A DNA stretch of 64,000 bases from Antedon mediterranea (Eukaryota; Animalia; Echinodermata), in contig NC_092670.1 of the NCBI RefSeq assembly GCF_964355755.1, forward strand, positions 8,608,201-8,672,200, written 5' to 3'. Each line of letters begins with the position of its first letter. Within the stretch, counting starts at the first letter, position 1. Under the pieces are notes generated by a model. The model saw nothing but the letters and a program-made list of their open reading frames with translations. It made no database searches and was not told where the DNA came from. Positions 3,151 to 60,107 of the stretch are shown here, in pieces. A program made the translations under genes and the position numbers.

Positions 3151-3640
3151 ATTTAAACTAGGCAATGATTTTCGATTTTCTCCCTTTTTTCATTTTAAAA
3201 ACTGTTTTCCTGTTTTTATTTGTTATTGGAATTTCTCTGTATGCTCTTTGTACTGTATTTTTTTGATGTGTTTTTTCATTATCATGGTTTTTGATGTTTT
3301 TTGTTATAATTTTAAGAGCTTTGTCTGTGTATATACAAACTTCAAATTTTAAATATTTTATATATTTAACAATAATGCTGTGCAAGCAGCGCATTCATTC
3401 ATTATAAGGGTTGTACTTTACCCCCAACTATACCAAAACAGTGCAAGGGTGACACATGAAATAGGTCAGGTTTGAAACTTAAAAGCATCTTGGTATCGAG
3501 TAAACCATTCCGATTTTATTGTTTTTTAAAAATCGAAATGATACTCACACCATCACAAAAAATAAACAATAGATAACAGTTTAGTAAAGATACTATACAA
3601 TTTTTGTTAATAATCAAACACCAATGTTGTATCTTCGCAG

Positions 3641-3721
3641 ATAATGGAGTCAAGAATACGTCATTATATGCTAAGAGAAGGAGTTAGGCAAGAAACTATT
3701 GATGCCCTTCAAGACAAAAGT
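3641..3721 (+). CDS. SAM-like exon A, upstream duplicate (MESRIRHYMLREGVRQETIDALQDKS)
   Basis: Acceptor cttcgcag, ATG at 3644, donor gttagt at 3722; near-identical to 8439-8519. Confidence 0.6.
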
Positions 3722-4514: not shown

Positions 4515-4646
4515 TTGAATTCTGTTGCTCAGATCAACAAGACATCTGACGAGACTCTGTTGACGACTTATGGACTGAAATCAATTGAAATTGAGAATAT
4601 ACGGCGTGGAGTTGAAATGTTTGAATTGCATCACAAAAAAGAAACG
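4515..4646 (+). CDS. SAM-like exon B, upstream duplicate (LNSVAQINKTSDETLLTTYGLKSIEIENIRRGVEMFELHHKKET)
   Basis: Acceptor ttcttttacag, donor gtaaag, open, phase 0-0; paralog of 9331-9462. Confidence 0.6.
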
Positions 4647-4840
4647 GTAAAGTGTGCAGATTTCTAGACATTGTATATTATTAGGCAGTACTGTACTACA
4701 CTGTATACTTCTTTGTGTATTCTATCTATCAGTATGTATTGCCTTTCCATATTTATCTTTGACATTTTTTACACCTACTCTATCAGAATTGTAAAAATTA
4801 TTAAATATGTTTTCAATAATGATTATGTTTTTAACCACAG

Positions 4841-4888
4841 GAAGATAAACCCAAGTCAATTAAGACTGTTGTGTCGTTTCGTTTTTAA
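4841..4888 (+). pseudogene. Truncated duplicate of exon C (EDKPKSIKTVVSFRF*), donor lost
   Basis: Matches 9812-9850, then a deletion removes the rest of the exon and its donor; reads into TAA at 4886-4888. Confidence 0.65.
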
Positions 4889-5184
4889 ATGATCATAAAG
4901 TAAAAAGGCTACAGTACCATTAATAAATAAAATTCCATCTCGGAAATAATGTCATATGGCCATTAGAGTGTGGTGCAGATGCTTCAATGGTTAGTAAATT
5001 TTCCTGCTATCCATTATAAGGGTTGTACTTTACCCCCAACTATACCAAAACAGTGCAAAGGTGACACTTGAAATAGGTCATGTTTGAAACTTAAAAGTAT
5101 CTTGGTATCGAGTAAACCATTTCGATTTTATTGTTTTTTTAAAATCGAAATGGTACTCACCATCACAACAAAATAAACAATAGA

Positions 5185-8100: not shown

Positions 8101-8351
8101 ATAACGAAGTTTCTTGCACATCTACAGCTACAGGTCAATCTTTTGACAAAGTTATACAATCTTATGTTGACATGGATGAGAGATATGCGACGCACAAAAA
8201 TCCGGGAAAGAAAGAAGAATAACAAAGAAGATGAAAAAAAAGATATTTACAATCACAAGGGTTATCCGCAACTTAAAGTTGCGGATAACCAAAAATGTTG
8301 ATCTCATACAATAACAAGGAGTTATCCGCTTGGTATACCAAGCGGATAACT
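5185..8351 (-). mobile_element. Non-autonomous Helentron/DINE-like element (outer copy)
   Basis: Absent from the paralogous unit 1 site (aacaatagataacagt). One end has ctag, the hairpin actcgtcactttgacgagt and subTIR gttatccgc; the other has the palindrome gttatccgcttggtataccaagcggataac; no clear TSD. Confidence 0.7.
6708..8290 (-). mobile_element. Related Helentron/DINE-like element nested in the outer copy
   Basis: Same end architecture (ctag...actcgtcactttgacaagt...gttatccgc; ggttatccgcaacttaaagttgcggataacc), internal homology to 5185-6707, inserted in an A-run. Confidence 0.7.
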
Positions 8352-8438
8352 AATAACAGTTTAGTAAAGATACTGTATGTATGTACTATTTTTGTTGATA
8401 ATCAAACACCATTATCAACTAATGTTGTATCTTCACAG

Positions 8439-8519
8439 ATAATGGAGTCAAGAATACGTCATTATATGCTAAGAGAAGGAGTTAGGCAAGAAACTATTGA
8501 TGCCCTTCAAGACGAAAAA
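8439..8519 (+). CDS. Exon A, SAM-like part 1 (MESRIRHYMLREGVRQETIDALQDEK)
   Basis: Acceptor cttcacag, ATG at 8442, donor gttagt at 8520. Confidence 0.75.
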
Positions 8520-11500
8520 GTTAGTGAATAAACATTTAAATTCAATGTGTATTAATTAATTAATTTACTATGCCTCCAGTAGTTTGTAATATATACAATA
8601 TGTCAGGTACTTTGCTTCCAATCCTTTCACTGCGTACCCAGTGTAATATGCTGATGCTATAGTTATTTTGAATACCACCTGTACATGATTACTATACAGT
8701 AATAAACAACTTAATTTGCATCATATGAAGTCTGTATCAATTCATTACAGTAGCAAATATTTTCCCTAAGACTGAACTGCTTAAAAAATAATTGTTTTAA
8801 ATTTTGCCTACCTACCAGTACATGTCACCCTCTCTATATTTTTTCTGACTAATTTAAGTTACTTGCAATTCTTGAAAAAAACTTGTTCTTGGACATAGAA
8901 GGACTTGCATCAGAGATCCACGTTACAGCCTAATCAACTGCTCCCCCTGTCTGGGACTGGCTAACCAACCAGTCCCAGCTTGCATTCCTTTTGAGAGTAG
9001 ACATTTCAACATAATGGTGCAAACTAAATCCTATGTTCAGAAATTGTGCTACTGTACATTGATTTATTCATTGAGTCGATCCGGAGAATGGCGTTGGTAA
9101 AAAATGAAAACGCACCTAAAATCTTGTTCACATCCAATGCCTGTCAAAAATTAAATTTGCGCTAAAACTAGAAAATTCCTAATGGAGTCTTCTGTGGACT
9201 AAGTTCTATCAGTTTAATCAACATTTGGTCAAAATCTGTTCAGTATTTTTGTATTAGTAATCTTACTAACAGACAAATAAAGCAGGGTGATGCAGTAACC
9301 TCCATTGTAAACATGGTTATTCTTTTACAGTTGAATTCTGTTGCTCAGATCAACAAGACATCTGATCAGACACTGTTGAAGACTTATGGACTAAAATCCA
9401 ATGAAATTGAGAACATACGGCGTGGAGTTGAAATGTTTGAATTGCATCACAAAGAAGAAACGGTAAATTGTTCAGATTTCTAGACATTTTTTTTTTATTA
9501 GGCAGTACTACACTGTAGCCTATACTTCTCATATTTTGTTTGTTTTGTCCAGTTACATATTTTCTATACTGTTTTCTTTTTGCTTGGTAAATATTGACAT
9601 TTATTTATTAAATATAAAATATATCATTTAATGAATTATTTATTAATTAGTCTAGTATGTATTGCCTTTCCATTTCATTCCATGTTTATCTTTGACATTT
9701 TTTACACCTACTCTATCAGAATTGTAAAAACTTGATCGAGTAGTTACCTACTGTTTTTCTAAAAAATTATTAAAATATGTTTTGAATAAACGATTATGTT
9801 TTTAACCACAGGAAGATATAAAACCCGAGTCAATTAAGACTGTTGTGTCGAATCCGACTTGGGATCCGACTTTTCAAGAGGCCACCAGCTCTAGAGAAAC
9901 AGAGGTAATGGTTCGTAAGAATGTTTAAATGATCATAAAGTAACAAAGCTACCATTAATAAATAAAATTACCTCTCAGAAATAATGTGATATTGCCATTG
10001 GAATGTGGTGCAGATGCTTCAATGGTAAATTTTCCTGCTATCCATTCATGCAAATTGTACCATGTACATTTTTCTACTACAACCAGATAGATAAAAACTT
10101 GATAAAAATTTTAATAATTTACATTTGTTTATCAGTTGATCTCAAGTTAAGGTTCTCAAAAATTCTTACAAAGATAAAAACAGTGAGAAGTTTGCAAAGC
10201 TACAGTAAATCTGCTATATGAACATGTCCTCAGAGTCGTCATTTTTTTAAGGCTAAATTTGTAATTACTTTGTATACCATTACATAATTTAGCAAATATA
10301 CTGTAAAAATATTAAACTTCATTTTTCTAGTAGTTTAATAGTTCAAGCTTAACCTGGATGATAGATGGTGGTGATATAATGGACAACTGCATCTGAATCT
10401 GACCTTGGAAAGACAGATTAAACAATTAATATCTAAATAGTTGTAATTATGCCAATCACCTATAGTAATTCTATGTACTGTAGTTATGAATTTAACTTTA
10501 GTTGTATCTAAACTAATTTTTTAAATGTTGGAAATTTTGTGTTTACTTTTTATGATTTTAAGGGAGCACATAGCAGTCAGAGACATGAAGATTTCTTAAT
10601 GGGCAGGTGAGTTATTTAATTCTAGACAATAAATTCAAGAAAAATAACGTTTTTAACTTTCCTTATTGGAAAATAAAAATCACAAGAATTTAATTATTGA
10701 ATACCCCTGAATGCTTTGTTTTTTAGAAATATATTGGAAAAGGCTATTGTTGAGGGAAAAGGATTGCAAGAAATTGAAAAAATATGTAGGAATGAACCAC
10801 ACCTTGTGAAAACCATCAATAAGGTATGGCAAATGTATGCATTCACAATTACCAAGAACAAATTGAATTTATTAATTTATTTATGAAACAATATCTATGG
10901 TACCCAAATTATAAAACATATTTAACAAATTATGGTTTATCTGTGATGATTAAAATGAAATTGTGAAAGAATTTCAAAGAAACGGACAGCATTTTTACCT
11001 GTATACCAAACACTACAATACTGCTTATAAAAAGATATGCACAGAACCATCTAGAGAAGAGAACACAAATATTTGTAACTGTTTTTAGTTACAAAGTTAC
11101 AAACAATTACTTATTGGATTGGTTGTTGTGTAAAAGATTTTTAAAGTAATTTTCATTTAGTTTATTCAATTTTACCTTCCAAGAAAACTAAATAAATGTA
11201 TTATATTATAAAAATATTGCTGATTACATGCATTCACATTTAGCTGCCGAGAACGCTAATCAAATTTATTGTATTTAATTTTTACGATTACGTTTTTATT
11301 TCGAAAAATAGAAGTTTAGTGGTAAAAATAATAGAGAATGTAGACCTATCAAAACAGACACTTTTAATTAGTCAACTTGGTATTATCATGTGAAATCCAA
11401 GAAAGTGTTTGCAATTCTTTCTATCCTTAAACATGTAAAACCTTGGATTAATTTAGGTCAACTTTCTCTTTCTCTTGTTCACCAAATTTTGAATACCGCA

Positions 11501-14500
11501 GCAATTATTTTGTCAAACTTGCCTACTACTACTAACTTTAAAAAATGTGGGACAATTGACTTACTGTGTATGAAATGCCAATTTCCTCTCACTGTTTAAG
11601 TTGATGTCACTTGGTTGGTTAAACCTTAGGTACATAATGTGAAAAGATCATCTTATAAGTCTTTAAATGGAGATTTACCCGAATACTGTACCATTCATAT
11701 TTGAAATTTGATAATGAAAATCATGAACATTTTACCAGAAATACAGTATTGTTTCATTTTATTTACTTTGCCTCAAAACAATATATAAAAATACAATACA
11801 TGGAAAAGAAATAAGAAAAAAAAAATAGAGACAGGATTCCTAGAAGAAATATCTTACTCTTTCTAATGATATTTAAAAAAAATTCCTGTTTGACCTTTGT
11901 TACATTTTTAGTCTTTCTTTGTTTATTCACCTTACTTTAATTATTACCATATATTACATTTCTTTTGGAGACTCAACTTAAAGGCTCCTTTTGGTTTATT
12001 TGAGTCACAAGACATAAAACAAAGTGAAGTTAGTTAAATAAGATATGTTTTTACGTTTTTTGTTATTTATTTGAAAAAAATATATAATTAAATGAATTTA
12101 TGAGGTGTATCTTTACTTCTTCGGTAGTTCACACCTAGAGCCCCTTTTTTGACATGCCAATTTTTTATCTACATTTCTGAAGTCTTCTTAAAAAAACAGG
12201 TCAATTTGAATTAGAGATACTGAACAGACTTGTACATCCAAATGCATTAACCACATCAAACAAAGTAATGTACAATACATTTTAACAAAAATAATGTAAA
12301 CCTTGAACATGTCTAATTCTTTTTTCCTGTCATGGAATTAAAGTATAGTGCACCCAATGTAATGACATAACATAGTATTGTATTTCATCTTTATTACATT
12401 ACAAAGTGAGAGAGATACATTTGCAAAATAAATAAAAACATACTGTTACTTTTGTATTATCATGGCAGATGTCTGTAGACTATAGTACTAAATTACAATT
12501 AAATCATAAGTTCAATTATATTATTATAGTAGGCCTTAATGATTATGATTTATTTCAGAATGGAAACACCCCACTACATCTATATCTTAGCATATTCACT
12601 ACAAAGTTTGGCTATCCTCAGATGAGAGGTGTTGAATTAGAGATACTGAACACTCTTGTACATCCAGATGCATTAACCACATCAAACAAAGTAATGTGTC
12701 ACGAAATTTTAACAAAAATAATGTAAACCTTGAACATGTCTAATTCTTTTTTCCTGTCATGGAATTAAAGTATATTGCACCCAATGTAATGACATAACAT
12801 AGTATTGTATTTCATCTTTATTACATTACAAAGAGAGAAAGATACATTTGCAAAATAAATAAAAACATACTGTTACTTTTGTATTATCATGGCAGATGTC
12901 TGTAGACTATAGTACTAAATTACAATTAAATCATAAGTTCAATTATATTATTATAGTAGGCCTTAATGATTATGATTTATTTCAGGATGGAAACACCCCA
13001 CTACATCTATATCTTAGCATATTCACTACAGAGTTTGGCTATCGTCGGATGAGGGATGTTGGATTAGAGATGAGGGGTGTTGAATTAGAGATACTGAACA
13101 CTCTTGTAAATCCAGATGCATTAACCACATCAAACCAAGTAATGTACAATACATTTTAACAAAAATAATGTAAACCTTGAACATGTCTAATTCTTTTTTC
13201 CTGTCATGGAATTAAAGTATAGTGCACCAATGTAATGACATAACATAGTATTGTATTTCATCTTTATTACATTACAAAGTGAGAAAGATACATTTGCAAA
13301 ATAAATAAAAACATACTGTTACTTTTGTATTATCATGGCAGATGTCTGTAGACTATAGTACTAAATTACAATTAAATCATAAGTTCAATTATATTATTAT
13401 AGTAGGCCTTAATGATTATGATTTATTTCAGGATGGAAACACCCCACTACATCTATATCTTAGCATATTCACTACAGAGTTTGGCTATCGTCGGATGAGG
13501 GATGTTGGATTAGAGATGAGGGGTGTTGAATTAGAGATACTGAACACTCTTGTAAATCCAGATGCATTAACCACATCAAACCAAGTAATGTACAATACAT
13601 TTTAACAAAAATAATGTAAACCTTGAACATGTCTAATTCTTTTTTCCTGTCATGGAATTAAAGTATAGTGCACCAATGTAATGACATAACATAGTATTGT
13701 ATTTCATCTTTATTACATTACAAAGTGAGAAAGATACATTTGCAAAATAAATAAAAACATACTGTTACTTTTGTATTATCATGGCAGATGTCTGTAGACT
13801 ATAGTACTAAATTACAATTAAATCATAAGTTCAATTATATTATTATAGTGGCCTTAATGATTATGATTTATTTCAGGATGGAAACACCCCACTACATCTA
13901 TATCTTAGCATATTCACTACAAAGTTTGGCTATCCTCAGATGAGGGGTGTTGAATTAGAGATACTGAACACTCTTGTACATCCAGATGCATTAACCACAT
14001 CAAACAAAGTAATGTACAATACATTTTAACAAAAATAATGTAAACCTTGACCTGTCTAATTCTTTTTTCCTGTCATGGAATTAAAGTATAGTGCACCAAT
14101 GTAATGACATAGCATAGTATTGTATTTCATCTTTATCATATTACAAAGCGGGAAAAATACTGTACATTTGCAAAATACAATAAAGAAATAAACATATAAC
14201 TGATACGTTAATTATTAATTGTAGATTTAATATGAATTGATGGTTTTTAAATAGATAATATTTATCATTGCAGATGTTTGTAGATCAGTACTAGCACTAG
14301 AGCCTTAGCAAAAAGCAAATTCAAAAGAGAAATGAAAACATACTATTTGTTTGTATAGTGATATTTATTTATTTTATAAGAGAATTATATTGTATATATT
14401 TGAGAGAAAGTGTATTTAAAAAAAAAAAAAAAATGTTTATGTATATTAATTTTATTTTAGACAGGTAGCCCTAATTTATTTATATAACTATTTATACTTC

Positions 14501-17500
14501 AATGTTTAGGGGCTGAACTCGATTAGTTTTAACTATTTTTTAGCCCTTCCCTTGATATAATTATTATTATTTGTATATTACAATGTTTATAATTTATATT
14601 TATGGGTAAAATAAAGAAAGAAAGAAAGAATCTTAAAGTAGCAACAGTAAATCAGTAGGCCTAATGAGTATAATTTATTTCAGTATGGAAACACCGCACT
14701 ACATCTATATCTTAGCTTATTCTCTACAAAGTTTGGCTATGATCTGATAAGGGGTGTTAATGAATTAGAGATACTGAACAGTCTTTTACATCCAGATGCA
14801 TTAACCACATCAAACAAAGTAATGTACAATACATTTTAACAAAAATAATGTAAACCTTGAACATGTCTAATTCTTTTTTCCTGTCATGGAATTAAAGTAT
14901 AGTGCACTCAATGTAATGACATGGCATACTAGTACAGTATTGTATTTCATCTTTATCATAATAATTAAAAAGCGGGAAACATACTGTACATTTGCAAAAT
15001 ACAATAAAGAAATAAACTAATGACTTATACAAATAAATTGTTGATTTAATATGAATTGATCATATATTGTAACTTAGGCCTTAATAATTATGATTCTTTG
15101 CAGGATAAAGACACACCACTACATCTATATCTAAGGAGTTCTGAAGTTAAATTAGAAATAGTAAACTGTCTCCTAACCAAAGGTGCATCAACCACATCTC
15201 CAAACAATGTATGTACATTTAATTTTACAAGTAGTTCATAAAGAGTAGGCCAATCCATCCCTTGATAATTATGATTGCAGAATGGATACACACCACTACA
15301 TCTATATCTAGGAAGGAGTTCTGAAGTTAAATTAGAGATAGTAAACTACCTCATAACCAATGGTGCATCAATCACAACTCCAAACAATGTATGTACATTT
15401 AATTTAATACAAGTAGTTTATAAACCATACAGCAATATTCCTAGGTATTAGACATTTCAAGTCTAAACAACACAGCCCCCACTGATAAGAAAGTGCTTAT
15501 TTTCAACAAGCTGGTGTAACACAAATAAAATCCCAAAAATTATGAAACATAGGGGAATCTATAGATCGATAATTATTGGAATGTATGATCAATAGAAATG
15601 TTTTGCATGCACCTGGCCTTCAAGGCTCCTTTTGGTTTATTTGAGTCACCAGACATAAATGTATCTACATTTCTAAAGTCTTCTTAAGACAAGGATCATG
15701 AGATTGAGCACATGCAGTTTAACACATTATATTGCACATTGTGGAAGATACATTTGTAAAATACAGAAACAAATGTAAAGGCCAATTGTATTCATCTAGA
15801 AACCAATCTATCCCTTGATAATTATGATTCTTTGCAGAATGGATACACACCACTACATCTATATCTAGGAAGGAGTTCTGAAGTTAAATTAGAGATAATA
15901 AACTGTCTCGTAACCAATGGTGCATCAATCACAACTCCAAACAATGTATGTACATTTAATTTTATAAATAGTTTATTAACGGTAAGCCAACATTTCTAAT
16001 TGCAATAATAGGTATTAGACATTTTAGATCAAAAAACACAGCTTAAATTAAAAATTGATTAAGTTATAAATTAAATTAATAAAATAAATTAAAAATAAAT
16101 TGATTTAATTAATTAAAATTGGAATACATATTTGATTGATTGATTGACTGAATTTCTTTATTAACCAGATTCGCATAATACATTCAATATAAAAACAATT
16201 AAATCATGAGAAACAATTAAATGTCTGTGAATTACCAATTTTGTTTTAGTAAGACTTTATAGCTAAACAATTTTTTTTAATCGTTGATAATCCAAAGTAA
16301 AAGCCAATTGTATTTCATCTAGTAGCCCTTGATAATTATGATTCTTTGCAGGATGGAGACACACCACTACATCTATATCTAAGAAGTCATGAAGTTAAAT
16401 TAGAGATAGTAAACTACCTCATAACCAATGGTGCATCAATCACAACTCCAAACAATGTATGTACATTTAATTTAATACAAGTAGTTTATAAACCATACGG
16501 CAATATTCCTAGGTATTAGACATTTCAAGTCTAAACAACACAGCCCCCACTGATAAGAAAGTGCTTATTTTCAACAAGCTGGTGTAACACAAATAAAATC
16601 CCAAAAATTATGAAACATAGAGGAATCTATAGATCGATGATTATTGGAATGTATGATCAATAGAAATGTTTTGCCCGCACCTGGCCTTCAAGGCTCCTTT
16701 TGGTTTATTTGAGTCACCAGACATAAATGTATCTACATTTCTAAAGTCTGAAGTCTTCTTAAAACAAGGATCACGACATTGAATAGAACATGCAATGTAA
16801 CGCATTATATTGCACATTGTGGAAGATACATTGCAAAATACAGAAACAAATGTAAAGGTGAATTGTATCTAGAAACCAATCTATCCCTTGATAATTATGA
16901 TTCTTTGCAGAATGGATACACACCACTACATCTATATCTAGGAAGGAGTTCTGAAGTTAAATTAGAGATAATAAACTGTCTCGTAACCAATGGTGCATCA
17001 ATCACAACTCCAAACAATGTATGTACATTTAATTTTATAAATAGTTTATTAACGGTAAGTCAACATTTTTAATTGCAATAATAGGTATTAGACATTTTAG
17101 ATAAAAAAAACACAGCTTAAATTAAAAATTGATTAAGTTATAAATTAAATTAATAAAATAAATTAAAACTAAATTGATTTAATTAATTAGAATTGGAATA
17201 CATATTTGATTGATTAATTGACTGAATTTTTTTATTAACCAGAGTCGCATAATACATTCAATATAAAAACAATTAAATCATGAGAAACAGTTAAATGTCT
17301 TTATCAGAATGCCCTGTGAATTACCAATTTTGTTTTAGTAAGACTTTATAGCTAAACAATTTTTTTAAATCGTTGATAATCCAAAGTAAAAGCCAATTGT
17401 ATTTCATCTAGTAGCCCTTGATAATTATGATTCTTTGCAGGATGGAGACACACCACTACATCTATATCTAAGAAGTGATGAAGTTAAATTAGAGATAGTA

Positions 17501-53500: not shown

Positions 53501-56500
53501 ATGACACCAGAGAGTCAAGCAGCAAGAACTACTACTGAAAAAGAATCTGAAGAGACTGTATCTGTCACAACTGTTGGCCTGTCACCGCCTAGAAAAAGGT
53601 TATCATGTAAGTCTATAATGAAATGTAACAAATAATACAAATAAAGTGCAACCAAAGATTAATGTTAAACTAGAAGTTTTTGAAGTTATGTAAGAGTAAA
53701 TTTTTAGGGTTAAACACAAATCTTTCACTTTTTGTACTGTTATATAATGTTATATAAGACTGAGTCTTCGAGCAAACAACAAAAAACTTGATAATCCTCC
53801 GCCATATTATTGGAAGTCCTTAATACACGATGGTAATACCCTCGTGCGGTTCACCATTGAAATTAGAAATCGATTTGATGCTCTCCAAGATGAAAGTGTG
53901 ATCGACAATCCTGATACCACCTATGAAAACTTTGTGAAAGCACACTGTGAAGCCGCTTCCAACTGTATTCCCTTGAAACCTAAAAAACGCAAAAGAGTAC
54001 CCTGGGAAACGCAGGCTATTCAAGACCAACGAGAGAGGATCAAACGATCAGCAACTTGTAAAAATGCTAACCCTACACCCCAAAACATCTCAAAATTCAA
54101 CAGAGAGAAGTTAAAGTTGACGAGGCTCTATCAAATCGAACTGGAAACCTATCTGCAAACTAAGATTGACTCGATTAAGCAATATTCGGTGAATAAGCAA
54201 TCATCGATGGCCTGGGATACGATTAATGAAATCTCGGGTAGAAAGCGCATCAGTCAAGCAAAGCTGAAAGCCACCAGTCAAAATGATCGTCTAAATCAAT
54301 GGAAAAACCACTTCAAGAACCTTCTTGGCAACATTCCCAATATAACCAATGTGGAAACCATTGAGCTATTTCCAGCACAGACTGAATCTAACATCAAAAT
54401 CGGTCCTTTTAACGACGAAGAGTTAAACAAAGCACTCACAAAAATGAAAAATGGAAAATCCCCAGGACTTGATGGGATTCCTCCAGAAGTGTGGAAAACG
54501 AAACATTTTAACAACGTACTCTTGAAGTGTTGCAATGAGGTCTATGAACAAAGACCTATTCACTACTGAACAAGAGGCTGCATACTACCATTTCCAAAAA
54601 AAGGAGATCTTGGAAAGGCCGAAAACTACAGAGGAATAACTCTCACCCCCATTGCTGCCAAGATCTACAATCTTATGCTCTTGAATAGAATACAACCATG
54701 GATCGAGACAATACTTCGTAAAAACCAAAATGGTTTTAGACAGGGACGCTCAGCAAGCAGCCAGATTCTCACAATTAGGAGAATACTTGAGGGAGTGCGT
54801 GACAAAAATCTTCCTGCAGTCCTCCTCTTTGTAGATTTCGCAAAAGCCTTCGATTCTGTCCATCGTGAAAAGATGCGTGAAATTCTTCTCGTCTACAAAA
54901 TTCCACCTGAGATTGTCAATGCCATAATGATGCTGTACAAAAACTCAAGTGCCCTGGTTCGTTCTCCAGATGGTGATACTGATCCGTTTCAGGTAAAAGC
55001 AGGCGTCCTTCAAGGAGATACTCTCGCTCCCTACATCTTCATCATATGTCTTGATTATGTTCTCCGCTCGGCTATTGATCCACTCAACAAACACGGCTTA
55101 ACATTGAAGCCAAGAATCAGCAAGAGGTTCCCTGCGACATTGGTAACTGACGCTGATTATGCTGACGATATAGCCCTGTTGTCGAACACGATTGCTGGAG
55201 CAAAAACCCTCCTACACGCCCTTGAAAATGCTGCATCCTCAATCGGCCTCCACATAAATGCCAAAAAGACAGAAAGTATGAACGTAAACTGTCAAGGTCA
55301 AATTCAAACTAGCTCCGGATACGCTCTCAATCAAGTCGACCAGTTCACCTATCTTGGCAGCAACATTGCCTCAACAGCAAAAGACGTTGATATACGTATC
55401 AGCAAAGCCTGGTCAGCTCTCAAACGCCTGACTGTCATATGGAAGTCCAACATCTCAAACAACATGAAGAAAAATTTCTTCAAGACCACAGTCGAGTCTG
55501 TCCTTCTCTACGGGTCATCGACATGGACCCTAACTAAGAAACTTGAAAACACTCTAAACGGAACATATACTAGGATGCTACGAGCCGTTCTTAACGTTTC
55601 GTGGCAAGATCACCTCTCCAACGCTCAGCTATATGGGAATCTTCGCAAGATCACCGATGTTATCAAAGAAAGAAGAGTCCGCTTTGTTGGACACTCTTTC
55701 CGCAACAAAAGTGAACTGATAAGCGAACTTATGCTCTGGATGCCATCACATAGGACAAGAAGACCAGGCAGGCCCCCAAAATCATTCATTGACCAACTAG
55801 TTGCGGACTCCGGCCATACAATTGAAGAGCTACCAGGAGCAATGATGAACAGAGACGGCTGGAAAGAAGTAGTCAAAAGGATCCGAGCAAGCTCGACGCA
55901 GTATATAGTAGTAGTAGTATATTTTGTACAAAACTGAATTGTAACTTAATTCATCATATTAAGCACATCTCCTAAATGTATGTATTAATATTCAAAGCTT
56001 GATTTTTTTATCATTGTGTTTTAAATATGTGATCATTGTCATTCAAAAACAGGTGATTCTGAGACAAATTACACATGCAAATTAAAAAAAAAAAATTAAA
56101 TGTTTAAGATTCAATTCAAGTTTCATTAAAGACCCATTCTCTACAATTGTTGACGTTTTGTAAAAATAATGCATATACTGTATATTACTTTCAAAACATT
56201 AAACCAGGTCATTAAATGTATGTTTTATTGTAAATTATGATAAAACGAGAGAAACAATGCACTACTTAAGTAGTCCGCGTTGAATGTCCTTTAGTTTTGT
56301 AGGCCTACTGGTAAACAGCAGTAACGTACGGACATCGTACACTTACTATAGGCCTATTGTAGCCTGACGTTGCAAATTGGGAAAACCCGGTAATTTAAGT
56401 ATACGATTCTTACACTTGTTTTGACCTTCAAGATCGATCGAACATGGGTGAATCCCAGAAGAAAAACGAAAAATTAAGTAGATAATCATAATATATGTAC

Positions 56501-59500
56501 TTGCAATCAAATAAACAAACCTGCTCATTATGGAACTAGAAGAAAAACTATGCATATGAAAATGAAGCTTTAAAATCTTATGGAAATCGAACAATAACTT
56601 TTTCAGCTTAATCCTGCTAACAACTAAAGGAAAAAAACACCCAGACACAATCGACCTCATCATAACCATTCTGGCAAAGTTAATAAAAGGTTATTTATAG
56701 ACGAAAAATAAGGAATTTTCTACAAAATTATATAATTTGGAACTGATGATATGGCTCTTACAATTTTCAAATCTTTTCTTTAGAACCATTCTGTTTTTCT
56801 TTTACCGCATACTTATTATAGTTAATTTTATTTCCAGTATATCACCAGCCACTTTTCTCTATGCTTGTAAATTTTTAAAATAAATTGTTAGCTCAACAGT
56901 CTGTAGTCGATCAAACAACACCAATGAGTCAAGCTGCAGGGTCTAGCAGTACTACTGGAAGAGAATCTGAAGAGATAACATCAATGTCTGAAACTACCAC
57001 AAATGTAAGACGGTCGACAAGTAGAGAAGAGTTACCATGTAAGCCCGTTCAAAGTTAACAATGTTTTGTAAGAATTAGTTCTTTGATGGTAAAAAAAAAA
57101 TACATGTACAAATGAAACTGAACTGAACAAGTTAATTGTAGCTAACCAGATATCATTAGTTTCATAATATTGTAACTAAAATTACATTAGTAGCGGCAAG
57201 TTCCTATTATCGTACTCAAAACACCACGTCTCCTTAGTTTGCTGGTATAAATCTGTATTATAACAATTCTCATTGTCATTAAAGTATAAAAACACACTAT
57301 AAAATATAATAATTTTATTATAAAACTCAGAACGGTTCTTCTGCACAATACCGTAATTCTTTTTATAATACTTTATTTTTTTCTAGATATTCTGACACTA
57401 CATCTCAAGAGAACTCAAGGTCCACCATATCCACAGTATGTTGTAGACATATTTGAGGACATTTTTAGTGGAAAAGATGTTATACATGCTGAGAATCTGC
57501 CAGAAAAAAGTGACACAGTTAAAAAACTTGTTCAAGTGATGGGGGACATTGGTTTTACTATTGCTTCCCTCAAACATAATTGTATATCATTTTATCTTTG
57601 TGTATTACATTTAAGTTCTCTATTTCTCATATGGAGCTTGTATAATAATGGAAGGCTTCTGAGATTGTTAAGTAAAGTATTAGCTCCCGAAGAACATCAG
57701 TCTGAATTCATTTCTCAATGGACTTTGCTAATCGAGCAACATGAACAAGTTTTCAAGAGTATGCAACTTAATGGTAAGTTAAAATTATTTGATTAGTCAA
57801 ATTGTATTTTCGCATGAATAGTGATTAAACCTTGCTTTCAGTTTTGTAATTATCAGAAAAACTATACATTTTTTTTTTAAAGTATGTGAACAATATTGTT
57901 TTTAATTTATTTTGATTTGTGCAATTTGGATCCAGAAAATATAAAAATAAAGAAAACCACTTACGTATAGCATAGAGGCTAAATATAAGGCAAAAATCAT
58001 AATAAAAAAATAAAAATTATCAAACAATAATTGAACAAATAATACTATCCACTCCTTTACCGGTTTTGTATACTTATTGTTTTCAGAACTTTCAACACCA
58101 AGATTGACGTCACCAATAACACCCTCAATACGTAAGTTAGCAATATATGTTAGTATACACATTAACATATATGAGTGCAATGTGGCAAATAATTTCATGA
58201 GGTGAAAGATAAAAGTATATATTTTTACGAGACATATTTTATCTTTCACAGAATGAAATTGTTGTATGCACGAATATAAAACATTCATTATTTTTTTATA
58301 ACACACCTACTGTGAATTATGTCAACAACCGAACATATTCATAGGCCTGCTAGCCCAGGCTGGTACTAGCAACACTAAAATTGCTAGGCAACCATAAAGA
58401 TATTCTTTTTCCCCTGAAAATAGTCAAATTGGCTGCCAGCCAATGAGTTTTTGGTTGAATTTAACGATTTATTTGGTAATTTTATAAGTGAAAACATTAT
58501 TTTTTTTCGTTTTTTTATTCGATGGAAGAGATTGACTTTATTAAAACTACAAAATAGTCTATTCAAAGTCTGATTTTATTAATCTTTATTTTTCATGTTT
58601 TTGGGGGACAATACATCTTTAAACTTAATTAAATGTGATGTGCCCATATATGGACATGATGATGTCATATCGACAAAGGGCATTGTTGTCCATCCAGCAA
58701 AAAGGTCGACCACTCCAGACCCCTACAGCAGCAATCAATTTTTAGTAGCAGCAGCAGCAATAGATTAGTAGCAGCAGCAGCAGCAGCAGCAGTAGTGCTT
58801 AACCTAAGCTCAATGTCCACCTCTTCTACCATGTCTCAAAAAGAAATGATGATGGTAGTGTGTTAGGATTCATAGAATGTACCATTATCATTTTGATTAT
58901 CTGGTTTATATATAAAAGTTAAATATATTTTAGTTGTAGCTCTCTTCTCGGAGAGAATAGGCCATTGTCGGTTTATCCATAGATATAGATAGTCACAAGG
59001 ATATATGTATCAATGGTGACATTAAGTAAATTTATTTTGTATTATGTTGAAGACTTTCCACTGTTTTCAGTAAACTCAATATCTAAAGCTCTTTCCAATT
59101 TATAATAAAAATTTAATTTTTAATATACTAAGTATTAAGTCCAATAGAGGTTGTAACAATGATATGTCATCAAGCAAATGATTGACATAATACAGTCACT
59201 GTATAGCTCAACAAATGTATACCTTTCTGATGATGATCCTAATGATCAATTTGAAACATTGTCCGGCGTTCGTCAAGGAGGTGTTGGTACTACCACCATA
59301 TTTAACCAATACTTGATTACGTTATTAGAGTGTTCAAACAACGCTGTCAATAAGCATATATCATCAATTGTCTCTGGATGTCAATTTCATTTAGGTTGTT
59401 CTTAAAAATTAAATGCATCTTTTCAGAATTTATTTTTAAACTTTGGAATAACCTTTAAAATTATATATTGAATGACATATTGTTATTGTTTTTAATAACT

Positions 59501-60107
59501 TAACTCAAAAATATAAAAGTAAATTTAACTGTTGTTTAATAGTTTAATAGTGTATAATTATTTTTATTTTTTTTTCTCTAAAGAACATTCCACAGAACAA
59601 TTGATTGAGCTGATTGTTGATGTCAATTCTTTCTGGAAAGATTATGGAAATGTTAATCTCCTGAAATTATTACTATACGAGTTTCAAAACAAAGTGCCTT
59701 TAATTGCAATACAGAAGGGTAAAGATGCACATGGTCTGTTCAAGCTACTTGTGGGGCCAGCGATTCTCAATAAATCCGATGTAACTGTTCTTATTGAAGC
59801 GGTTTATTTGAGTTGTTTACGTAGTTTAGAATCAAAGATAATGGATATGGTACCGTCATTTAAAGGATTTAAGAATTTTGAGGTTCGTAAATTCTCAAAA
59901 CATCGAAAAAATTTAATTAAATTTGGTTTTATAATAAGCATTGACACAATGACATGGATTGACCAATTTTACAATGTTAAGCCAGAAGATCAATGGGATT
60001 TGATATTCAAAATTGAAATATTAGGTAAATTGCCATCTTTAGTTGAAAAGCTTAAACGAGAAAACATGATGAAGGAGTATGAAATCATAACATCATCTGA
60101 TAACTAA
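8442..60107 (+). CDS. Multi-exon gene: SAM-like / 20 ankyrin cassette exons / TRADD-N-like / tandem DED-like protein (~1420 aa if all exons are joined)
   Basis: 31 GT-AG exons read manually join in one frame with matching phases: 8442-8519, 9331-9462, 9812-9904, 10563-10606, 10727-10823, 20 ANK exons (12559 to 52103), 52502-52586, 53478-53606, 56892-57038, 57387-57773, 58087-58131, 59584-60107 (TAA). AATAAA at ~60371 and ~60555. An upstream exon may exist because the ATG exon has an acceptor. Confidence 0.8.
9331..9462 (+). CDS. Exon B, SAM-like part 2 (LNSVAQINKTSDQTLLKTYGLKSNEIENIRRGVEMFELHHKEET)
   Basis: ttttacag / gtaaat; pattern resembles SAM helices 3-5. Confidence 0.75.
9812..9904 (+). 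CDS. Exon C, linker (EDIKPESIKTVVSNPTWDPTFQEATSSRETE)
   Basis: aaccacag / gtaatg, phase 0-0, open. Confidence 0.7.
10563..10606 (+). CDS. Exon D (GAHSSQRHEDFLMG)
   Basis: ttttaag / gtgagt; phase 0-2, matching the next exon. Confidence 0.65.
10727..10823 (+). CDS. Exon E, ankyrin N-cap-like (RNILEKAIVEGKGLQEIEKICRNEPHLVKTINK)
   Basis: tttgttttttag / gtatgg; phase 2-0; ends -INK like the ANK exon junctions. Confidence 0.75.
12200..12264 (+). pseudogene. Half ankyrin exon (QFELEILNRLVHPNALTTSNK), 5' part and normal acceptor deleted
   Basis: Donor gtaatg intact; no GNTPLH; closest to the 3' half of exon 51966-52103. Confidence 0.7.
12559..12690 (+). CDS. ANK exon 1, type A (NGNTPLHLYLSIFTTKFGYPQMRGVELEILNTLVHPDALTTSNK)
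   Basis: tttatttcag / gtaatg; GxTPLH; phase 0-0. Confidence 0.85.
12986..13138 (+). CDS. ANK exon 2, type A with 7-aa loop duplication (...FTTEFGYRRMRDVGLEMRGVELEIL...)
   Basis: ttcag / gtaatg; 153 nt. Confidence 0.85.
13432..13584 (+). CDS. ANK exon 3, type A, identical to exon 2
   Basis: 446 bp after exon 2, with near-identical flanking intron. Confidence 0.85.
13877..14008 (+). CDS. ANK exon 4, type A (DGNTPLHLYLSIFTTKFGYPQMRGVELE...)
   Basis: ttcag / gtaatg; 132 nt. Confidence 0.85.
14684..14818 (+). CDS. ANK exon 5, type A (YGNTALHLYLSLFSTKFGYDLIRGVNELEILNSLLHPDALTTSNK)
   Basis: tttatttcag / gtaatg; 135 nt. Confidence 0.85.
15104..15208 (+). CDS. ANK exon 6, type B (DKDTPLHLYLRSSEVKLEIVNCLLTKGASTTSPNN)
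   Basis: ttctttgcag / gtatgt; canonical-length ANK with LLxxGA. Confidence 0.85.
15281..15388 (+). CDS. ANK exon 7, type B hybrid (NGYTPLHLYLGRSSEVKLEIVNYLITNGASITTPNN)
   Basis: gattgcag / gtatgt; preceding intron only 72 nt. Confidence 0.75.
15838..15945 (+). CDS. ANK exon 8, type B-N (NGYTPLHLYLGRSSEVKLEIINCLVTNGASITTPNN)
   Basis: ttctttgcag / gtatgt; 108 nt. Confidence 0.85.
16352..16456 (+). CDS. ANK exon 9, type B-D (DGDTPLHLYLRSHEVKLEIVNYLITNGASITTPNN)
   Basis: ttctttgcag / gtatgt; 105 nt. Confidence 0.85.
16911..17018 (+). CDS. ANK exon 10, type B-N
   Basis: Same peptide and splice sites as exon 8. Confidence 0.85.
17441..17545 (+). CDS. ANK exon 11, type B-D (DGDTPLHLYLRSDEVKLE...)
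   Basis: ttctttgcag / gtatat. Confidence 0.8.
17996..18103 (+). CDS. ANK exon 12, type B-N
   Basis: Same peptide and splice sites as exons 8 and 10. Confidence 0.85.
18529..18633 (+). CDS. ANK exon 13, type B-D
   Basis: Same peptide as exon 11; gtatgt donor. Confidence 0.85.
18690..19722 (+). mobile_element. Helitron-like non-autonomous element (5' boundary uncertain)
   Basis: Internal short tandem repeats (gtgaactaggcctac; ~80 bp duplication near 18970-19120); ends in the hairpin actagagggt...gcgagcgaaacgagcg...accctCTAG followed by T. Confidence 0.45.
20428..24240. mobile_element. Kolobok-type non-autonomous DNA transposon
   Basis: TTAA TSD (20424-20427, 24241-24244); TIRs aggggggttccgggtttaaaat / attttaaacccagaatccccct; RR...YY termini. 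Confidence 0.8.
21774..23990 (+). mobile_element. RTE-group LINE, 5'-truncated, nested in the Kolobok element
   Basis: Begins at the endonuclease end (DTDHRIV); ORF 21885..23636 has QSGFRKGRST, DMSSAFDTV, PQGDSLSP, YADD; out-of-frame RWRLLGHILR; AT-rich tail; TSD ACGTACA at 21767-21773 and 23991-23997. Confidence 0.92.
24541..24672 (+). CDS. ANK exon 14, type A (DGNTPVHLYFSLFRTGDRRLWGNIIEFEILNRLVHPDFLTTSNK)
   Basis: tttatttcag / gtaatg; 132 nt. Confidence 0.85.
27815..28602. mobile_element. MITE with 8-bp TSD (P-element-like or hAT) inserted in the Gypsy integrase
   Basis: TIR cagagccatatat(at)aaagagttacgacattg at both ends; TSD CCTTAATT at 27807-27814 and 28603-28610. Confidence 0.88.
28792..29564 (+). 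mobile_element. Solo LTR of a different element inserted in the Gypsy integrase
   Basis: TGTCG...CGACA ends, TSD TAAC, internal AATAAA near 29494; removing it restores integrase KYVLVICDYATRY. Confidence 0.85.
32690..33725 (-). mobile_element. RTE-clade LINE fragment (APE endonuclease), degenerate
   Basis: IGFWNVRTL, ILGISECRWTGQG, MGDHNAKVG, NQIDHVLV, RGADIASDHQLV across frameshifted ORFs. Confidence 0.9.
34021..34192. repeat. Imperfect ~170 bp palindrome (hairpin MITE-like)
   Basis: Core tggtga.tgatgaaaggttatat.caact...agttg.atataacctttcatca.tcacca at 34072-34140, with outer arms acaaacaat / attgtttgt. Confidence 0.7.
34560..35135. repeat. Composite minisatellite built on a 21-bp unit TGTCCARRATGGGGAAATTTC
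   Basis: About 20 tgtcca-anchored units mixed with ggtggcgctatatcg and gctgtccaatatagagaaatccgatt sub-units. Confidence 0.9.
35305..36730. repeat. Dispersed, partly triplicated ~250 bp block
   Basis: cgttaaaaactacagtatattatattaa...caggatatttattaatataattaatacag...accacagacc recurs near 35408, 35863 and 36506. Confidence 0.7.
39820..42397 (+). mobile_element. Sola2-type DNA transposon, internally deleted, with transposase remnant
   Basis: ~520 bp TIRs (39820-40339 and 41887-42397) with GGG...CCC termini; TSD ATAT; DGCGGQYKN...WNFFATSHGKSAFDGIGGTVKR in ORF 40539..40925, continuing at 41225..41716. Confidence 0.88.
40869..41222 (-). mobile_element. tRNA-derived SINE with Deu/Nin-like central domain, nested in the Sola2 transposase
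   Basis: Minus strand: A box tggccgagcggttaagg, B box ggttcgaggcc, core aaagaacccagttcattattcgaaaaagagtagggggttaccccgg, A-rich tail. Confidence 0.8.
42774..43303. mobile_element. Kolobok-type MITE
   Basis: TTAA TSD; TIR agatgtattgtccc / gggacactacatct. Confidence 0.8.
43439..43573 (+). CDS. ANK exon 15, type A (DGNTPLHQYLSMFNTEFADHLKEDVIKLEILNILVHQEALTTTNK)
   Basis: tttcttgcag / gtaatt; 135 nt. Confidence 0.85.
43798..44096 (+). mobile_element. tRNA-derived CORE-like SINE
   Basis: B box ggttcgaatcc at 43838; taggcaagatacttt...tgcctctctccacccagg...aaaatgggtac; (tat)n tail. Confidence 0.75.
44688..44822 (+). CDS. ANK exon 16, type A (DGNTPLHLYLSIFTTKFGYYHMHRGIKLEILNSLVHPDALTISNK)
   Basis: atttcag / gtaatg. 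Confidence 0.85.
45163..45297 (+). CDS. ANK exon 17, type A (DGNTPLHLYLSIFYKGFAFLMMERGIELEILNSLIHQDALTTTNN)
   Basis: tttcttgcag / gtaatg. Confidence 0.85.
45559..45693 (+). CDS. ANK exon 18, type A (DGNTPLHLYLSIFYRRVLFYPKERGIELEILNSLIHQYALTTSNK)
   Basis: tttattgcag / gtaatg. Confidence 0.85.
45738..49388. mobile_element. Academ-like non-autonomous DNA transposon
   Basis: TAGACCAGTCG...CGACTGGTCTA ends, imperfect TIR over ~140 bp (shared aggtgtcactttt, gtaga.tacgaat), 3-bp TSD TAA; no transposase recognised. Confidence 0.7.
47395..47790. mobile_element. Tc1/mariner(pogo/Tc2)-like MITE with GGGTTACTATTAG repeats
   Basis: TA|ccgtaaatcttctaattgtaaccc at the left; gggttactattagaagatt at the right (end eroded). 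Confidence 0.55.
50070..50306. mobile_element. pogo/Tigger-like MITE
   Basis: TA|cagtaggacc...ggttctactg|TA. Confidence 0.65.
51361..51495 (+). CDS. ANK exon 19, type A (DGNTPLHLYMSIFHKGFYYYPRERGIELEILNRLVHQDALATSNK)
   Basis: tttcttgcag / gtaatg. Confidence 0.85.
51638..51760. repeat. GGCGTTTATTC repeats, fragment of a Tc/mariner-type MITE end
   Basis: Five to six ggcgtttatt units ending aatacgcta. Confidence 0.5.
51966..52103 (+). CDS. ANK exon 20, type A (DGNTPLHLYLSIFNTKFGYYLMEHDQFELEILNRLVHQNALTTSNK)
   Basis: tttatttcag / gtaatg; 138 nt. Confidence 0.85.
52502..52586 (+). CDS. Ankyrin C-cap exon (KGKTPVCILKDNDQMDLEVKHTILKLFD)
   Basis: ttgtttatag / gtaagt; GKTP motif; phase 0-1. Confidence 0.8.
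53478..53606 (+). CDS. Ser/Thr-rich linker exon 1 (QQSKMDQMTPESQAA...SPPRKRLS)
   Basis: ttgttag / gtaagt; phase 1-1; paralog of 56892-57038. Confidence 0.75.
53757..55920 (+). mobile_element. RTE-group LINE, 5'-truncated, single in-frame stop
   Basis: ORFs 53844..54569 and 54675..55937 share a frame, separated by TGA; QNGFRQGRS, DFAKAFDSV, LQGDTLAP, YADD; (gta)n tail. Confidence 0.93.
56892..57038 (+). CDS. Ser/Thr-rich linker exon 2 (QQSVVDQTTPMSQAAGSSSTTGRESEE...REELP)
   Basis: ttgttag / gtaagc; phase 1-1. Confidence 0.75.
57387..57773 (+). CDS. Exon encoding a TRADD-N-like domain
   Basis: ttttttttctag / gtaagt; 387 nt open; GFTIASLKHNCISFYLCVLHLSSLFLIWSLYNNGRLLRLLSKVL. Confidence 0.8.
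58087..58131 (+). CDS. Short linker exon (ELSTPRLTSPITPSI)
   Basis: ttgttttcag / gtaagt; phase 1-1. Confidence 0.7.
58745..58796. repeat. (GCA)n microsatellite
   Basis: Interrupted agcagcagc runs. Confidence 0.8.
59178..59340 (+). mobile_element. Small degenerate LINE reverse transcriptase fragment
   Basis: IDIIQSLY...FETLSGVRQGG...IFNQY. Confidence 0.7.
59584..60107 (+). CDS. Terminal exon, tandem death-effector-domain-like
   Basis: Polypyrimidine tract plus aag acceptor in phase 1; LLKLLLYEF...KDAHGLFKLL...LNKSDVTVLIEAV...LRSLESKI, then FSKHRKNLIKFG...DQWDLIFKIE; stop TAA. Confidence 0.8.

What the first reader, a model, noticed from the sequence alone, without database searches (positions are those of the whole stretch)
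8442..60107. Candidate variable ankyrin-cassette immune sensor: SAM - (ANK cassette)x20 - TRADD-N-like - tandem DED
Seen: one in-frame gene in which constant 5' exons and constant 3' exons flank 20 intact one-repeat-per-exon ankyrin cassettes, plus at least two dead ones. The ORF track shows only scraps of it. Known: ankyrin stacks are ligand-binding scaffolds, SAM domains oligomerise, and tandem DEDs recruit FADD/caspase-8-type partners. Inference: a cytosolic sensor with an expanding, diversifying recognition module wired to death-fold signalling, an ankyrin analogue of variable LRR/Ig receptors. I know of no named gene with this architecture. No signal peptide or convincing transmembrane exon was seen.
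Basis: partly seen in the sequence, partly recalled or inferred. Interest (0 to 1): 0.92.

Follow-up and report, generated by a model that had tools for sequence, protein, structure and literature searches.

The report
Crinoid shuffled-ankyrin death-effector immune sensor
A feather-star locus lines up 20 one-repeat ankyrin exons, some with fast-changing inserted loops, in frame ahead of a module predicted to fold like caspase-8's death-effector pair; it is likely an intracellular immune sensor of a recently described class, though this copy is not yet shown to be transcribed as one message.

Summary
Thirty exons join into a stop-free 1405-aa frame, with 20 intact phase-0 ankyrin cassettes and 4 remnants. 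The DNA is from the feather star Antedon mediterranea. The last exon is a tandem DED (model pLDDT 96; Z 15.5 to caspase-8). The exon before it is TRADD-N-like. The N-terminal SAM is only SAM/HhH-like.

A paralog, XP_071943401, has 13 cassettes of the same two classes in a different order. The long class carries an aromatic-rich inserted loop with omega 2.5 against 0.4 in the framework. The same tandem DED sits on crinoid NLR, Roco, TIR, caspase-8-like and Rel proteins.

Against the reading: the RNA-like contigs that show cassette splicing carry paralog alleles, RefSeq ends the 5' exons as a separate short gene, and no alternative splicing is shown.

TRADD-N plus death-fold proteins with variable ankyrin flanks are described (Kaur 2021), as are exon-shuffled repeat receptors in brown algae. 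This is a new variant, not a new class. The scan had not noted this gene; it noted a sea-urchin ankyrin/death-fold analogue.

The parts
3644..3721 (+). upstream duplicate of SAM-like exon a (intact)
   Evidence: encodes residues 1-26 of XP_071943365.1
4515..4646 (+). upstream duplicate of SAM-like exon b (intact); the duplicated third exon near 4840-4876 is truncated
8439..8519 (+). SAM/HhH-like exon a (acceptor at 8439, ATG at 8442)
   Evidence: fold-level support only
9331..9462 (+). SAM/HhH-like exon b
   Evidence: contigs of X9 and X8 begin exactly at this exon's acceptor
9812..9904 (+). linker exon (RefSeq uses a later donor at 9914)
10136..10221 (+). alternative terminal exon of the RefSeq 203-aa model
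10563..10606 (+). short linker exon (phase 0 to 2)
10727..10823 (+). ankyrin N-cap exon
   Evidence: resembles the N-cap of ANK-Roco XP_071964198
12203..12285 (+). dead half-cassette (3' half of the long class)
12559..12690 (+). ANK cassette 1, long class
   Evidence: GT..AG joint at its donor
12986..13138 (+). ANK cassette 2, long, with a 21-nt internal duplication
13432..13584 (+). ANK cassette 3, long, identical to cassette 2
13877..14008 (+). ANK cassette 4, long
14684..14818 (+). ANK cassette 5, long
15104..15208 (+). ANK cassette 6, short class
   Evidence: GT..AG joint at its donor
15281..15388 (+). ANK cassette 7, short (upstream intron only 72 nt)
15838..15945 (+). ANK cassette 8, short
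   Evidence: Pfam Ank above cutoff
16352..16456 (+). ANK cassette 9, short
16911..17018 (+). ANK cassette 10, short (same protein as 8)
17441..17545 (+). ANK cassette 11, short
17996..18103 (+). ANK cassette 12, short (same protein as 8)
18529..18633 (+). ANK cassette 13, short (same protein as 11)
20018..20055 (+). cassette remnant (3' end and donor)
20322..20427 (+). dead long-class cassette
24238..24275 (+). cassette remnant
24541..24672 (+). ANK cassette 14, long, most divergent
43439..43573 (+). ANK cassette 15, long (after an 18.8-kb transposon-filled intron)
44688..44822 (+). ANK cassette 16, long
45163..45297 (+). ANK cassette 17, long
45559..45693 (+). ANK cassette 18, long
51361..51495 (+). 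ANK cassette 19, long
51966..52103 (+). ANK cassette 20, long
52502..52586 (+). ankyrin C-cap exon
   Evidence: 24 of 27 residues identical to the paralog; resembles the Roco C-cap
53478..53606 (+). Ser/Thr-rich linker exon
56892..57038 (+). Ser/Thr-rich linker exon, duplicate of 53478 (79% nt over 92 nt)
57387..57773 (+). TRADD-N-like domain exon
   Evidence: Atlas 0.94, 220 of 256 features, PF20694 clusters; crinoid homologues
59584..60107 (+). tandem death-effector-domain exon, ending in the stop codon
   Evidence: model pLDDT 96.4; Z 15.5 to caspase-8 tDED

Best explanation
This is one copy of a small Antedon gene family whose one-repeat ankyrin exons differ in number and order between copies, and it likely encodes a cytosolic innate-immune sensor: the ankyrin stack would bind a variable ligand, the TRADD-N-like domain would act as the switch, and the predicted tandem DED would recruit DED-bearing partners such as caspase-8-like or Rel proteins.

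Shown: the exon anatomy, two cassette classes, recent tandem expansion, different cassette orders in paralogs, and loop-versus-framework rate differences. Predicted: the tandem DED fold. Inferred: that phase-0 cassettes are gained and lost by unequal crossing-over between look-alike introns, which is germline and evolutionary change, not somatic; that the loop inserted after the first ankyrin helix is the ligand-contacting part; that TRADD-N holds the flanking domains inactive until ligand binds (the model of Kaur et al. 2021); and that DED-DED assembly is the output. The ankyrin stack, both caps and the DED are most like those of crinoid ANK-Roc-COR-DED (Roco) proteins, so the gene likely arose from such a gene with TRADD-N in place of the GTPase switch.
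For: Thirty exons stay in frame with AG/GT sites. In simulation only 7% of copies keep the constant exons intact after 1% neutral divergence (assumed indel rate), and the nearest paralog-like contig differs at 40 of 429 nt. The tandem DED is supported. Of 85 homologues of the last exon, 53 show a Pfam DED hit, 14 NACHT, 9 Roc or COR, 4 TIR, 1 caspase and 1 Rel domain; all 18 that I looked up are crinoid. Seven of the 85 also carry the TRADD-N-like region. Cassette order is 5L-8S-7L here and SLLSSSLSSLSSL in XP_071943401, with no identical cassette shared. Loop omega is 2.5 (p=0.0003 against 1) and framework omega 0.41 on 10 of 12 long cassettes. The loop is 24% F/Y/W/H against 12% in the framework. 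GT..AG joints at predicted cassette borders appear in X8 and X9 and not in X1 or X5. The ankyrin stack is 42% identical to ANK-Roco XP_071964198, and the DED groups with C-terminal DEDs of Roco, TIR and kinase proteins.
Against: No ligand, expression pattern or partner is known. At six single-base amino-acid-changing sites in the last exon, X9's bases give the paralog's residues, and at five of them no X9 contig carries the window's base, so the spliced RNA likely comes from paralogs. RefSeq ends the 5' exons as a 203-aa gene, and no annotated protein for this copy's ankyrin-to-DED part came up within the length ranges searched. This copy has Ala59 where 114 of 131 other modules have Gly, Ser80 (94 Gly) and Lys108 (102 Gln). 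On the five gap-free long cassettes alone, loop omega is 1.5 and not significant (p=0.20) unless the loop is given its own synonymous rate (p=0.014). The loop was chosen after looking at the alignment, and gene conversion or multi-base changes can inflate omega (recalled caveat). The family looks small, about 2-4 loci, not a large receptor repertoire.
Confidence: 0.55

Rival explanations
1. It is an inhibitor or decoy rather than a sensor. Lacking the Roc-COR or NACHT switch, it would use its tandem DED like short cFLIP, and perhaps its ankyrins like IkB, to cap DED assemblies of crinoid caspase-8-like, Roco or DED-Rel proteins.
For: No NTPase or caspase domain is encoded. The fold matches cFLIP and vFLIP tandem DEDs as well as caspase-8 (Z 11.6-13.2). 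Antedon has a Rel protein with this DED at its N-terminus. The closest other DEDs (73%) are annotated as 207-208-aa DED-only proteins.
Against: An inhibitor of a conserved host partner should keep a fixed repeat number and surface (inference). Here the number, order and loop sequence all vary.
Confidence: 0.2
2. This copy is a recently silenced or split duplicate. The 5' exons make a short SAM-like protein, as RefSeq has it, and the ankyrin-to-DED part is untranscribed or decaying and serves at most as a donor of cassettes to expressed paralogs.
For: The RefSeq model ends at 10221. X9 contigs carry paralog residues in the last exon. Conserved glycines are replaced. Introns are loaded with retroelements, one intron being 18.8 kb. 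There are four dead cassettes.
Against: There is no stop, frameshift or lost splice site in 30 exons, and simulated survival of the constant exons is 30% at 0.5% divergence and under 1% at 2%. The N-cap exon lies downstream of the RefSeq end and in frame with both sides. Contigs drop rare transcripts, and alleles may differ between animals.
Confidence: 0.17
3. It is a non-immune scaffold, or acts in self/non-self or gamete recognition, and the repeat variation mostly reflects mutational instability of tandem phase-0 exons.
For: Repeat expansion by tandem duplication is common in proteins (PMC1553488, passages). Recent duplicates here are identical or nearly so. The short cassettes vary little.
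Against: The DED's relatives are dominated by NLR, TIR, Roco, caspase and Rel proteins. The loop evolves much faster than the framework at amino-acid level (p=2e-16).
Confidence: 0.08

Closest known systems
TRADD-N plus death-fold lineage-specific expansions of marine invertebrates (Kaur et al. 2021, PMC8195603; sections 11 and 12 read whole, other passages, and term searches in Figure 4-source data 1)
   Same: A constant TRADD-N plus DED unit next to a variable flank; a single TRADD-N between two domains; a terminal death fold. Ankyrin flanks are listed for Amphimedon (Death+CARD+DED+TRADDN+Ankyrin), Exaiptasia (Ankyrin+TRADDN-DEDD2) and Lingula.
   Different: The order ankyrin stack, TRADD-N, C-terminal tandem DED was not among the rows my terms returned. 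That file is cut in storage and had no Anneissia rows. In the parts read, the paper treats domain-level shuffling, not cassette exons with a fast loop.
Crinoid ANK-Roc-COR-tandem-DED Roco proteins (XP_071964198.1; XP_071944627.1)
   Same: Similar TPLHLYL-type repeats (42% identity), N-cap, C-cap and related C-terminal tandem DED.
   Different: There is no Roc-COR in the window. A TRADD-N-like domain stands in its place, and the long cassettes carry an insert that the Roco repeats lack.
Ectocarpus ROCO-LRR and NB-ARC-TPR exon-shuffled candidate receptors (PMC3341825, passages and section 15; PMC11378527, abstract)
   Same: One repeat per exon, dead exons in introns, different repeat number between recent paralogs (13 versus 17 there; 13 versus 20 here), and diversifying selection inside repeats.
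   Different: Ankyrin instead of LRR or TPR, an animal host, death-fold output, no GTPase or NB-ARC, and no inverted cassettes on the other strand. Alternative splicing is reported there and not shown here.
Caspase-8 / cFLIP / vFLIP tandem DED
   Same: Predicted fold over 150-163 aligned residues, Z 11.6-15.5.
   Different: Only 13-17% identity, C-terminal instead of N-terminal, and no caspase domain.
Dscam and agnathan VLR variable receptors (recalled, from no call)
   Same: Cassette-like repeat units that could be combined in frame.
   Different: Those diversify within an individual by mutually exclusive splicing or somatic assembly and are surface or secreted proteins. Neither was shown here.

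Membership tests
TRADD-N + death-fold LSE proteins (Kaur 2021) | TRADD-N domain | tested here: met
   Atlas feature search 0.94, 220 of 256 shared, 10 of the 10 best family hits agree on TRADD-like_N. No Pfam HMM hit, also none for crinoid homologues. No fold was computed, so support is moderate.
TRADD-N + death-fold LSE proteins (Kaur 2021) | terminal Death-like domain, usually DED | tested here: met
TRADD-N + death-fold LSE proteins (Kaur 2021) | single TRADD-N at the junction of constant and variable regions | tested here: met
   gene model; the paralog has the same order
TRADD-N + death-fold LSE proteins (Kaur 2021) | tiny residue plus Ser/Cys motif in the beta2-beta3 turn | tested here: inconclusive
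   Asn-Cys here and in the paralog, Gly-Ser or Ala-Cys in Anneissia homologues, read by eye
TRADD-N + death-fold LSE proteins (Kaur 2021) | lineage-specific expansion with mixed architectures | tested here: met
   7 of 85 DED homologues share the TRADD-N-like region in different orders; no genome-wide count was possible
TRADD-N + death-fold LSE proteins (Kaur 2021) | assignment to the DEDD2 or NCOA6 clade | not tested
Roco proteins | Roc-COR tandem | tested here: not met
   tblastn of the Roc-COR region of XP_071964198 gave no hit at E<=10; 100 crinoid proteins gave no hit outside the modelled exons, the 12.2-kb remnant and the RefSeq exons
Exon-shuffled repeat receptors (Ectocarpus type; works-like only) | one repeat per symmetric exon, with dead exons in introns | tested here: met
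Exon-shuffled repeat receptors (Ectocarpus type; works-like only) | repeat number and order differ between paralogs | tested here: met
   the paralog's order rests on its RefSeq model
Exon-shuffled repeat receptors (Ectocarpus type; works-like only) | positive selection within repeats | tested here: met
   omega 2.5, p=0.0003 on 10 cassettes; not significant on 5 gap-free cassettes with a shared synonymous rate
Exon-shuffled repeat receptors (Ectocarpus type; works-like only) | LRR or TPR repeats with Roc-COR or NB-ARC | tested here: not met
   ankyrin repeats, no NTPase
Dscam/VLR-type variable receptors | combinatorial splicing or somatic assembly within an individual | tested here: inconclusive
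   joint 15208-18529 has only 22-23 nt on its short side and may be a paralog's adjacent cassettes; contigs only, no long reads
SAM domain | SAM profile or fold match | tested here: inconclusive
   SAM_EPH 19.7 bits, cutoff 27, E 7e-4, behind a DUF1233 hit; structure neighbours are HhH, NusA, alpha-CTD and Rad51-N at TM 0.62-0.71, under the tool's naming bar
Caspase-8/cFLIP-L | caspase or pseudo-caspase domain after the tandem DED | tested here: not met
   the stop follows the DED; the caspase-8-like query hit nothing else in the window

The most novel reading that the evidence does not exclude
The phase-0 cassettes are spliced combinatorially within an individual, so that a few loci yield a large repertoire of ankyrin binders with hypervariable loops, a natural DARPin library, wired to a crinoid-wide tandem-DED hub that also sits on caspase-8, Rel, NLR and Roco proteins. 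That would be an ankyrin-based anticipatory receptor system in a deuterostome.
Probability: 0.12. Interest if true: 0.9.

Novelty: new variant of a known kind. Interest (0 to 1): 0.55.

Why it matters
It gives a concrete, testable case of an animal receptor-like gene whose recognition stack is rebuilt by cassette gain and loss, with a fast-changing loop grafted onto the ankyrin frame, in crinoids, for whose immune genes my searches found no dedicated paper. It also exposes one tandem-DED module shared across crinoid NLR, Roco, TIR, kinase, deubiquitinase, caspase-8-like and Rel proteins, which predicts the wiring downstream. The ankyrin-to-DED part of this copy seems to be missing from the public annotation. 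If splicing is combinatorial, it would be a new route to receptor diversity.

Tried and rejected
No whole genome is held for this window, so paralogs could not be counted or located.

Single-sequence AlphaFold of the last exon failed (pLDDT 43); the 40-sequence alignment worked. Pfam found nothing on the TRADD-N and DED exons. A profile search of PDB sequences gave only non-significant vFLIP rows. Foldseek gave no hit at E<=0.001, though its top rows are all tandem DEDs.

Complex prediction of TRADD-N with the tandem DED returned no verdict (score 0.00, alignments not used); it is no evidence either way.

No RNA holder is on record for this stretch. The first read-laying was swamped by repeats (598 joints not shown), and 59 joints were hidden in the second, so junctions not seen there prove nothing.

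My first reading that XP_071943401 is an ortholog was rejected: it lies on a contig of the same length as the protein the window encodes. The idea of two tandem genes in the array was rejected. The KH-domain Pfam label on the paralog has no significant stretch and is noise. Rfam found nothing. The N-cap similarity score is inflated by nine residues of the first repeat.

No paper describing this gene or family came up in searches; subscription papers are not covered. That many animal ankyrin genes have one repeat per exon is recalled; one search did not confirm it.

Full report
OBSERVATION. The cassettes are real. A profile built from nine of them and run on both strands gave 27 rows, 24 of them at E<0.01, all on the + strand. 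Twenty are intact exons with AG/GT ends, phase 0 at both sides and lengths of 105-153 nt, each a multiple of three. Four are remnants. The caps, the TRADD-N-like exon and the last exon occur once each in the window. The largest intron, 18.8 kb, holds retroelements.

ORGANISM AND ANNOTATION. A search with exon 9331-9462 returned 1 protein of 2 candidates, XP_071943365.1 of Antedon mediterranea. Six window exons encode it letter for letter. That model joins an upstream duplicate (3644-4646) to the exon at 8439, giving two SAM-like units, and ends at 10221 without ankyrins. The last exon found 1 protein among 684 candidates, XP_071943401.1, at 84% identity. It lies on a contig of the same length, so it is a paralog. 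No protein for this copy's ankyrin-to-DED part appeared at 304-2000 aa or 573-1824 aa; shorter models were not excluded.

DOMAINS. The last exon has no Pfam hit alone. It found 85 representatives, of which 53 show a DED hit somewhere on the protein (22 of 30 at E<=0.01; 31 of 55 at E<=0.001 with five families shown each). Folded with a 40-row alignment it gives an all-helical model at pLDDT 96.4. The top nine structural matches are caspase-8, cFLIP and vFLIP tandem DEDs, the best at Z 15.5 over 159 residues and rmsd 2.6; the next row is Z 8.4. The exon before it matches TRADD-like N-terminal clusters at 0.94 with 220 of 256 features, and 7 of the 85 DED homologues share it. The N-terminal unit is only SAM/HhH-like: SAM_EPH is below cutoff and the structure neighbours are helix-hairpin-helix domains. 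The first 30 residues have no hydrophobic stretch. One window in TRADD-N reaches 1.87 and is more polar in the paralog.

VARIABILITY. There are two cassette classes, short (35-36 aa) and long (44-51 aa, with an insert after the first helix). The window reads 5 long, 8 short, 7 long, with 16 distinct sequences. The paralog reads SLLSSSLSSLSSL, 13 cassettes, none identical to one here, and the two sets intermingle on a tree (6 changes each, many forks unresolved). Some duplications are very recent: units 2 and 3 match at 445 of 445 nt and the short dimers at 1050 of 1067. In a codon model on 10 of the 12 long cassettes (the two with a 21-nt internal duplication were left out), loop omega is 2.5 and framework omega 0.41; p is 0.0003 against neutrality, or 0.01 with a loop-specific synonymous rate. 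On the five gap-free cassettes it is 1.5 (p=0.20), or 6.9 (p=0.014) with its own rate. Pairwise counts on those five give 3.5 for the loop against 0.12 and 0.51 for the two framework parts (pairs not independent). The partition was chosen after seeing the alignment, and gene conversion may inflate these values.

TRANSCRIPTION. Nine runs hold the 3' region, none on record as RNA; I laid six of them. In 8300-18800, GT..AG joints at predicted borders (12690-12986 and 15208-18529) appear in X8 and X9 and not in X1 or X5. Contigs of X9 and X8 begin exactly at the acceptor of exon 9331-9462, and one X8 contig of the same depth also covers the exons before and after it. I infer from this that X8 and X9 are RNA. 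An X9 contig starts exactly at acceptor 59584, but differs at 40 of 429 nt, and a second differs at 74 of 397. At six single-base amino-acid-changing sites among the ten last-exon rows shown, X9's base gives the paralog's residue. So the family is spliced as predicted, while this copy is not shown to be transcribed. The joints have 22-23 nt on the short side and cannot show skipping. The SAM-to-ankyrin join and the long intron are untested.

IS THIS COPY ALIVE? For: no disabling change in 30 exons; simulated survival of the constant exons is 30%, 7% and under 1% at 0.5%, 1% and 2% neutral divergence (2000 replicates, indel rate assumed). Against: Ala59, Ser80 and Lys108 replace residues conserved in 114, 94 and 102 of 131 other modules; RefSeq does not carry the gene through; RNA-like contigs favour paralogs.

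ORIGIN AND WIRING. After the paralog, the ankyrin match with the highest identity among the 120 hits listed of 1286 is an Antedon ANK-Roc-COR-DED protein at 42%. Its caps and DED resemble the window's (DED score 80 against a shuffle maximum of 61). No Roc-COR remains in the window. The window's DED groups, at FastTree support 0.94, with C-terminal DEDs of Roco, TIR, kinase and NB-ARC-TPR proteins. The wider set includes 14 NACHT proteins, a caspase-8-like protein and a Rel protein. All 18 of the 85 that I looked up are from Antedon (8) or Anneissia (10). I infer descent from an ANK-Roco-like gene with TRADD-N replacing the GTPase switch; the direction of change was not tested.

MECHANISM. Most likely (0.55) a cytosolic sensor. 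The variable loops would bind a ligand, TRADD-N would release the tandem DED, and DED assembly would recruit caspase-8-like or Rel partners. Diversity would arise in the germline by unequal exchange among look-alike introns. The rivals are a FLIP- or IkB-like decoy (0.2), a silenced or split copy (0.17) and a non-immune scaffold (0.08).

COMPARISON. Kaur et al. 2021 (PMC8195603; passages, sections 11 and 12 whole) describe lineage-specific expansions in sessile marine invertebrates with a constant TRADD-N plus DED region, variable flanks that include ankyrins, and TRADD-N as a proposed switch at the junction. Their source table lists ankyrin plus TRADD-N proteins in a sponge, an anemone and a brachiopod. 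It had no row matching my terms for this order and no Anneissia rows; the file is cut in storage, and I saw only the first eight places per species term. Brown-algal ROCO genes show one repeat per exon, dead exons, paralogs with 13 and 17 repeats, and positive selection (PMC3341825, passages and section 15); alternative splicing is reported in PMC11378527 (abstract only). PMC1553488 (passages) treats repeat expansion as general. The gene is therefore a member of the first class on moderate TRADD-N evidence, works like the second, is not a Roco, and is not shown to be Dscam- or VLR-like. Nine literature searches found no description of this family. The scan had no note on this genome or sequence; an unchecked note describes a sea-urchin ankyrin/death-fold family.

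VERDICT. A real, apparently unannotated gene and a new variant of a known kind. Interest 0.55, with a 12% chance of a splice-generated ankyrin repertoire that would deserve 0.9.

Noticed in passing
P0198 (XP_071955940.1, Antedon mediterranea; not in the window): A Rel-homology transcription factor with the crinoid tandem DED at its N-terminus. This may be a direct death-fold-to-NF-kB link.
   Followed up: no
window 57387-57773 versus P0001: The TRADD-N-like domain is only 57% identical (72 of 126) between the paralogs, against 84% for the DED and 24 of 27 for the C-cap. It may be diversifying or have a mosaic history.
   Followed up: partly
P0121 and P0206 (XP_071947214, XP_071947218): Two 207-208-aa proteins that are almost only this tandem DED (73% to the window's). 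They are either short-FLIP-like or truncated gene models.
   Followed up: partly
window 25069-32603: Ty3/gypsy-type element on the minus strand with a SCAN-domain gag, broken into several frames, between 96%-identical long direct repeats.
   Followed up: no
window 21759-23636, 32560-33730, 53748-55937: Three LINE-type reverse transcriptase or endonuclease insertions inside the gene's introns.
   Followed up: no
window 39816-42401: A 524-bp, 95%-identical inverted repeat pair enclosing two frames with no Pfam hit; DNA-transposon-like.
   Followed up: no
window 15476-15625, 16544-16688, 17669-17773: A very high-copy genomic repeat sits in the introns of the short-cassette dimer and was duplicated with it; it could seed unequal crossing-over.
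   Followed up: no
window 3397-8229: A tandem duplication of the 5' exons (93% over 1178 nt) and a second 1.5-kb repeated block (5167-6704 versus 6687-8229, 75%).
   Followed up: partly
window 10539-10783: Run X1 holds three versions of this stretch (0, 31 and 28 differences). If X1 is one diploid animal, at least two loci carry these N-cap exons.
   Followed up: partly
window 34489-35175: A 21/42/54-bp minisatellite that is open in several frames.
   Followed up: no
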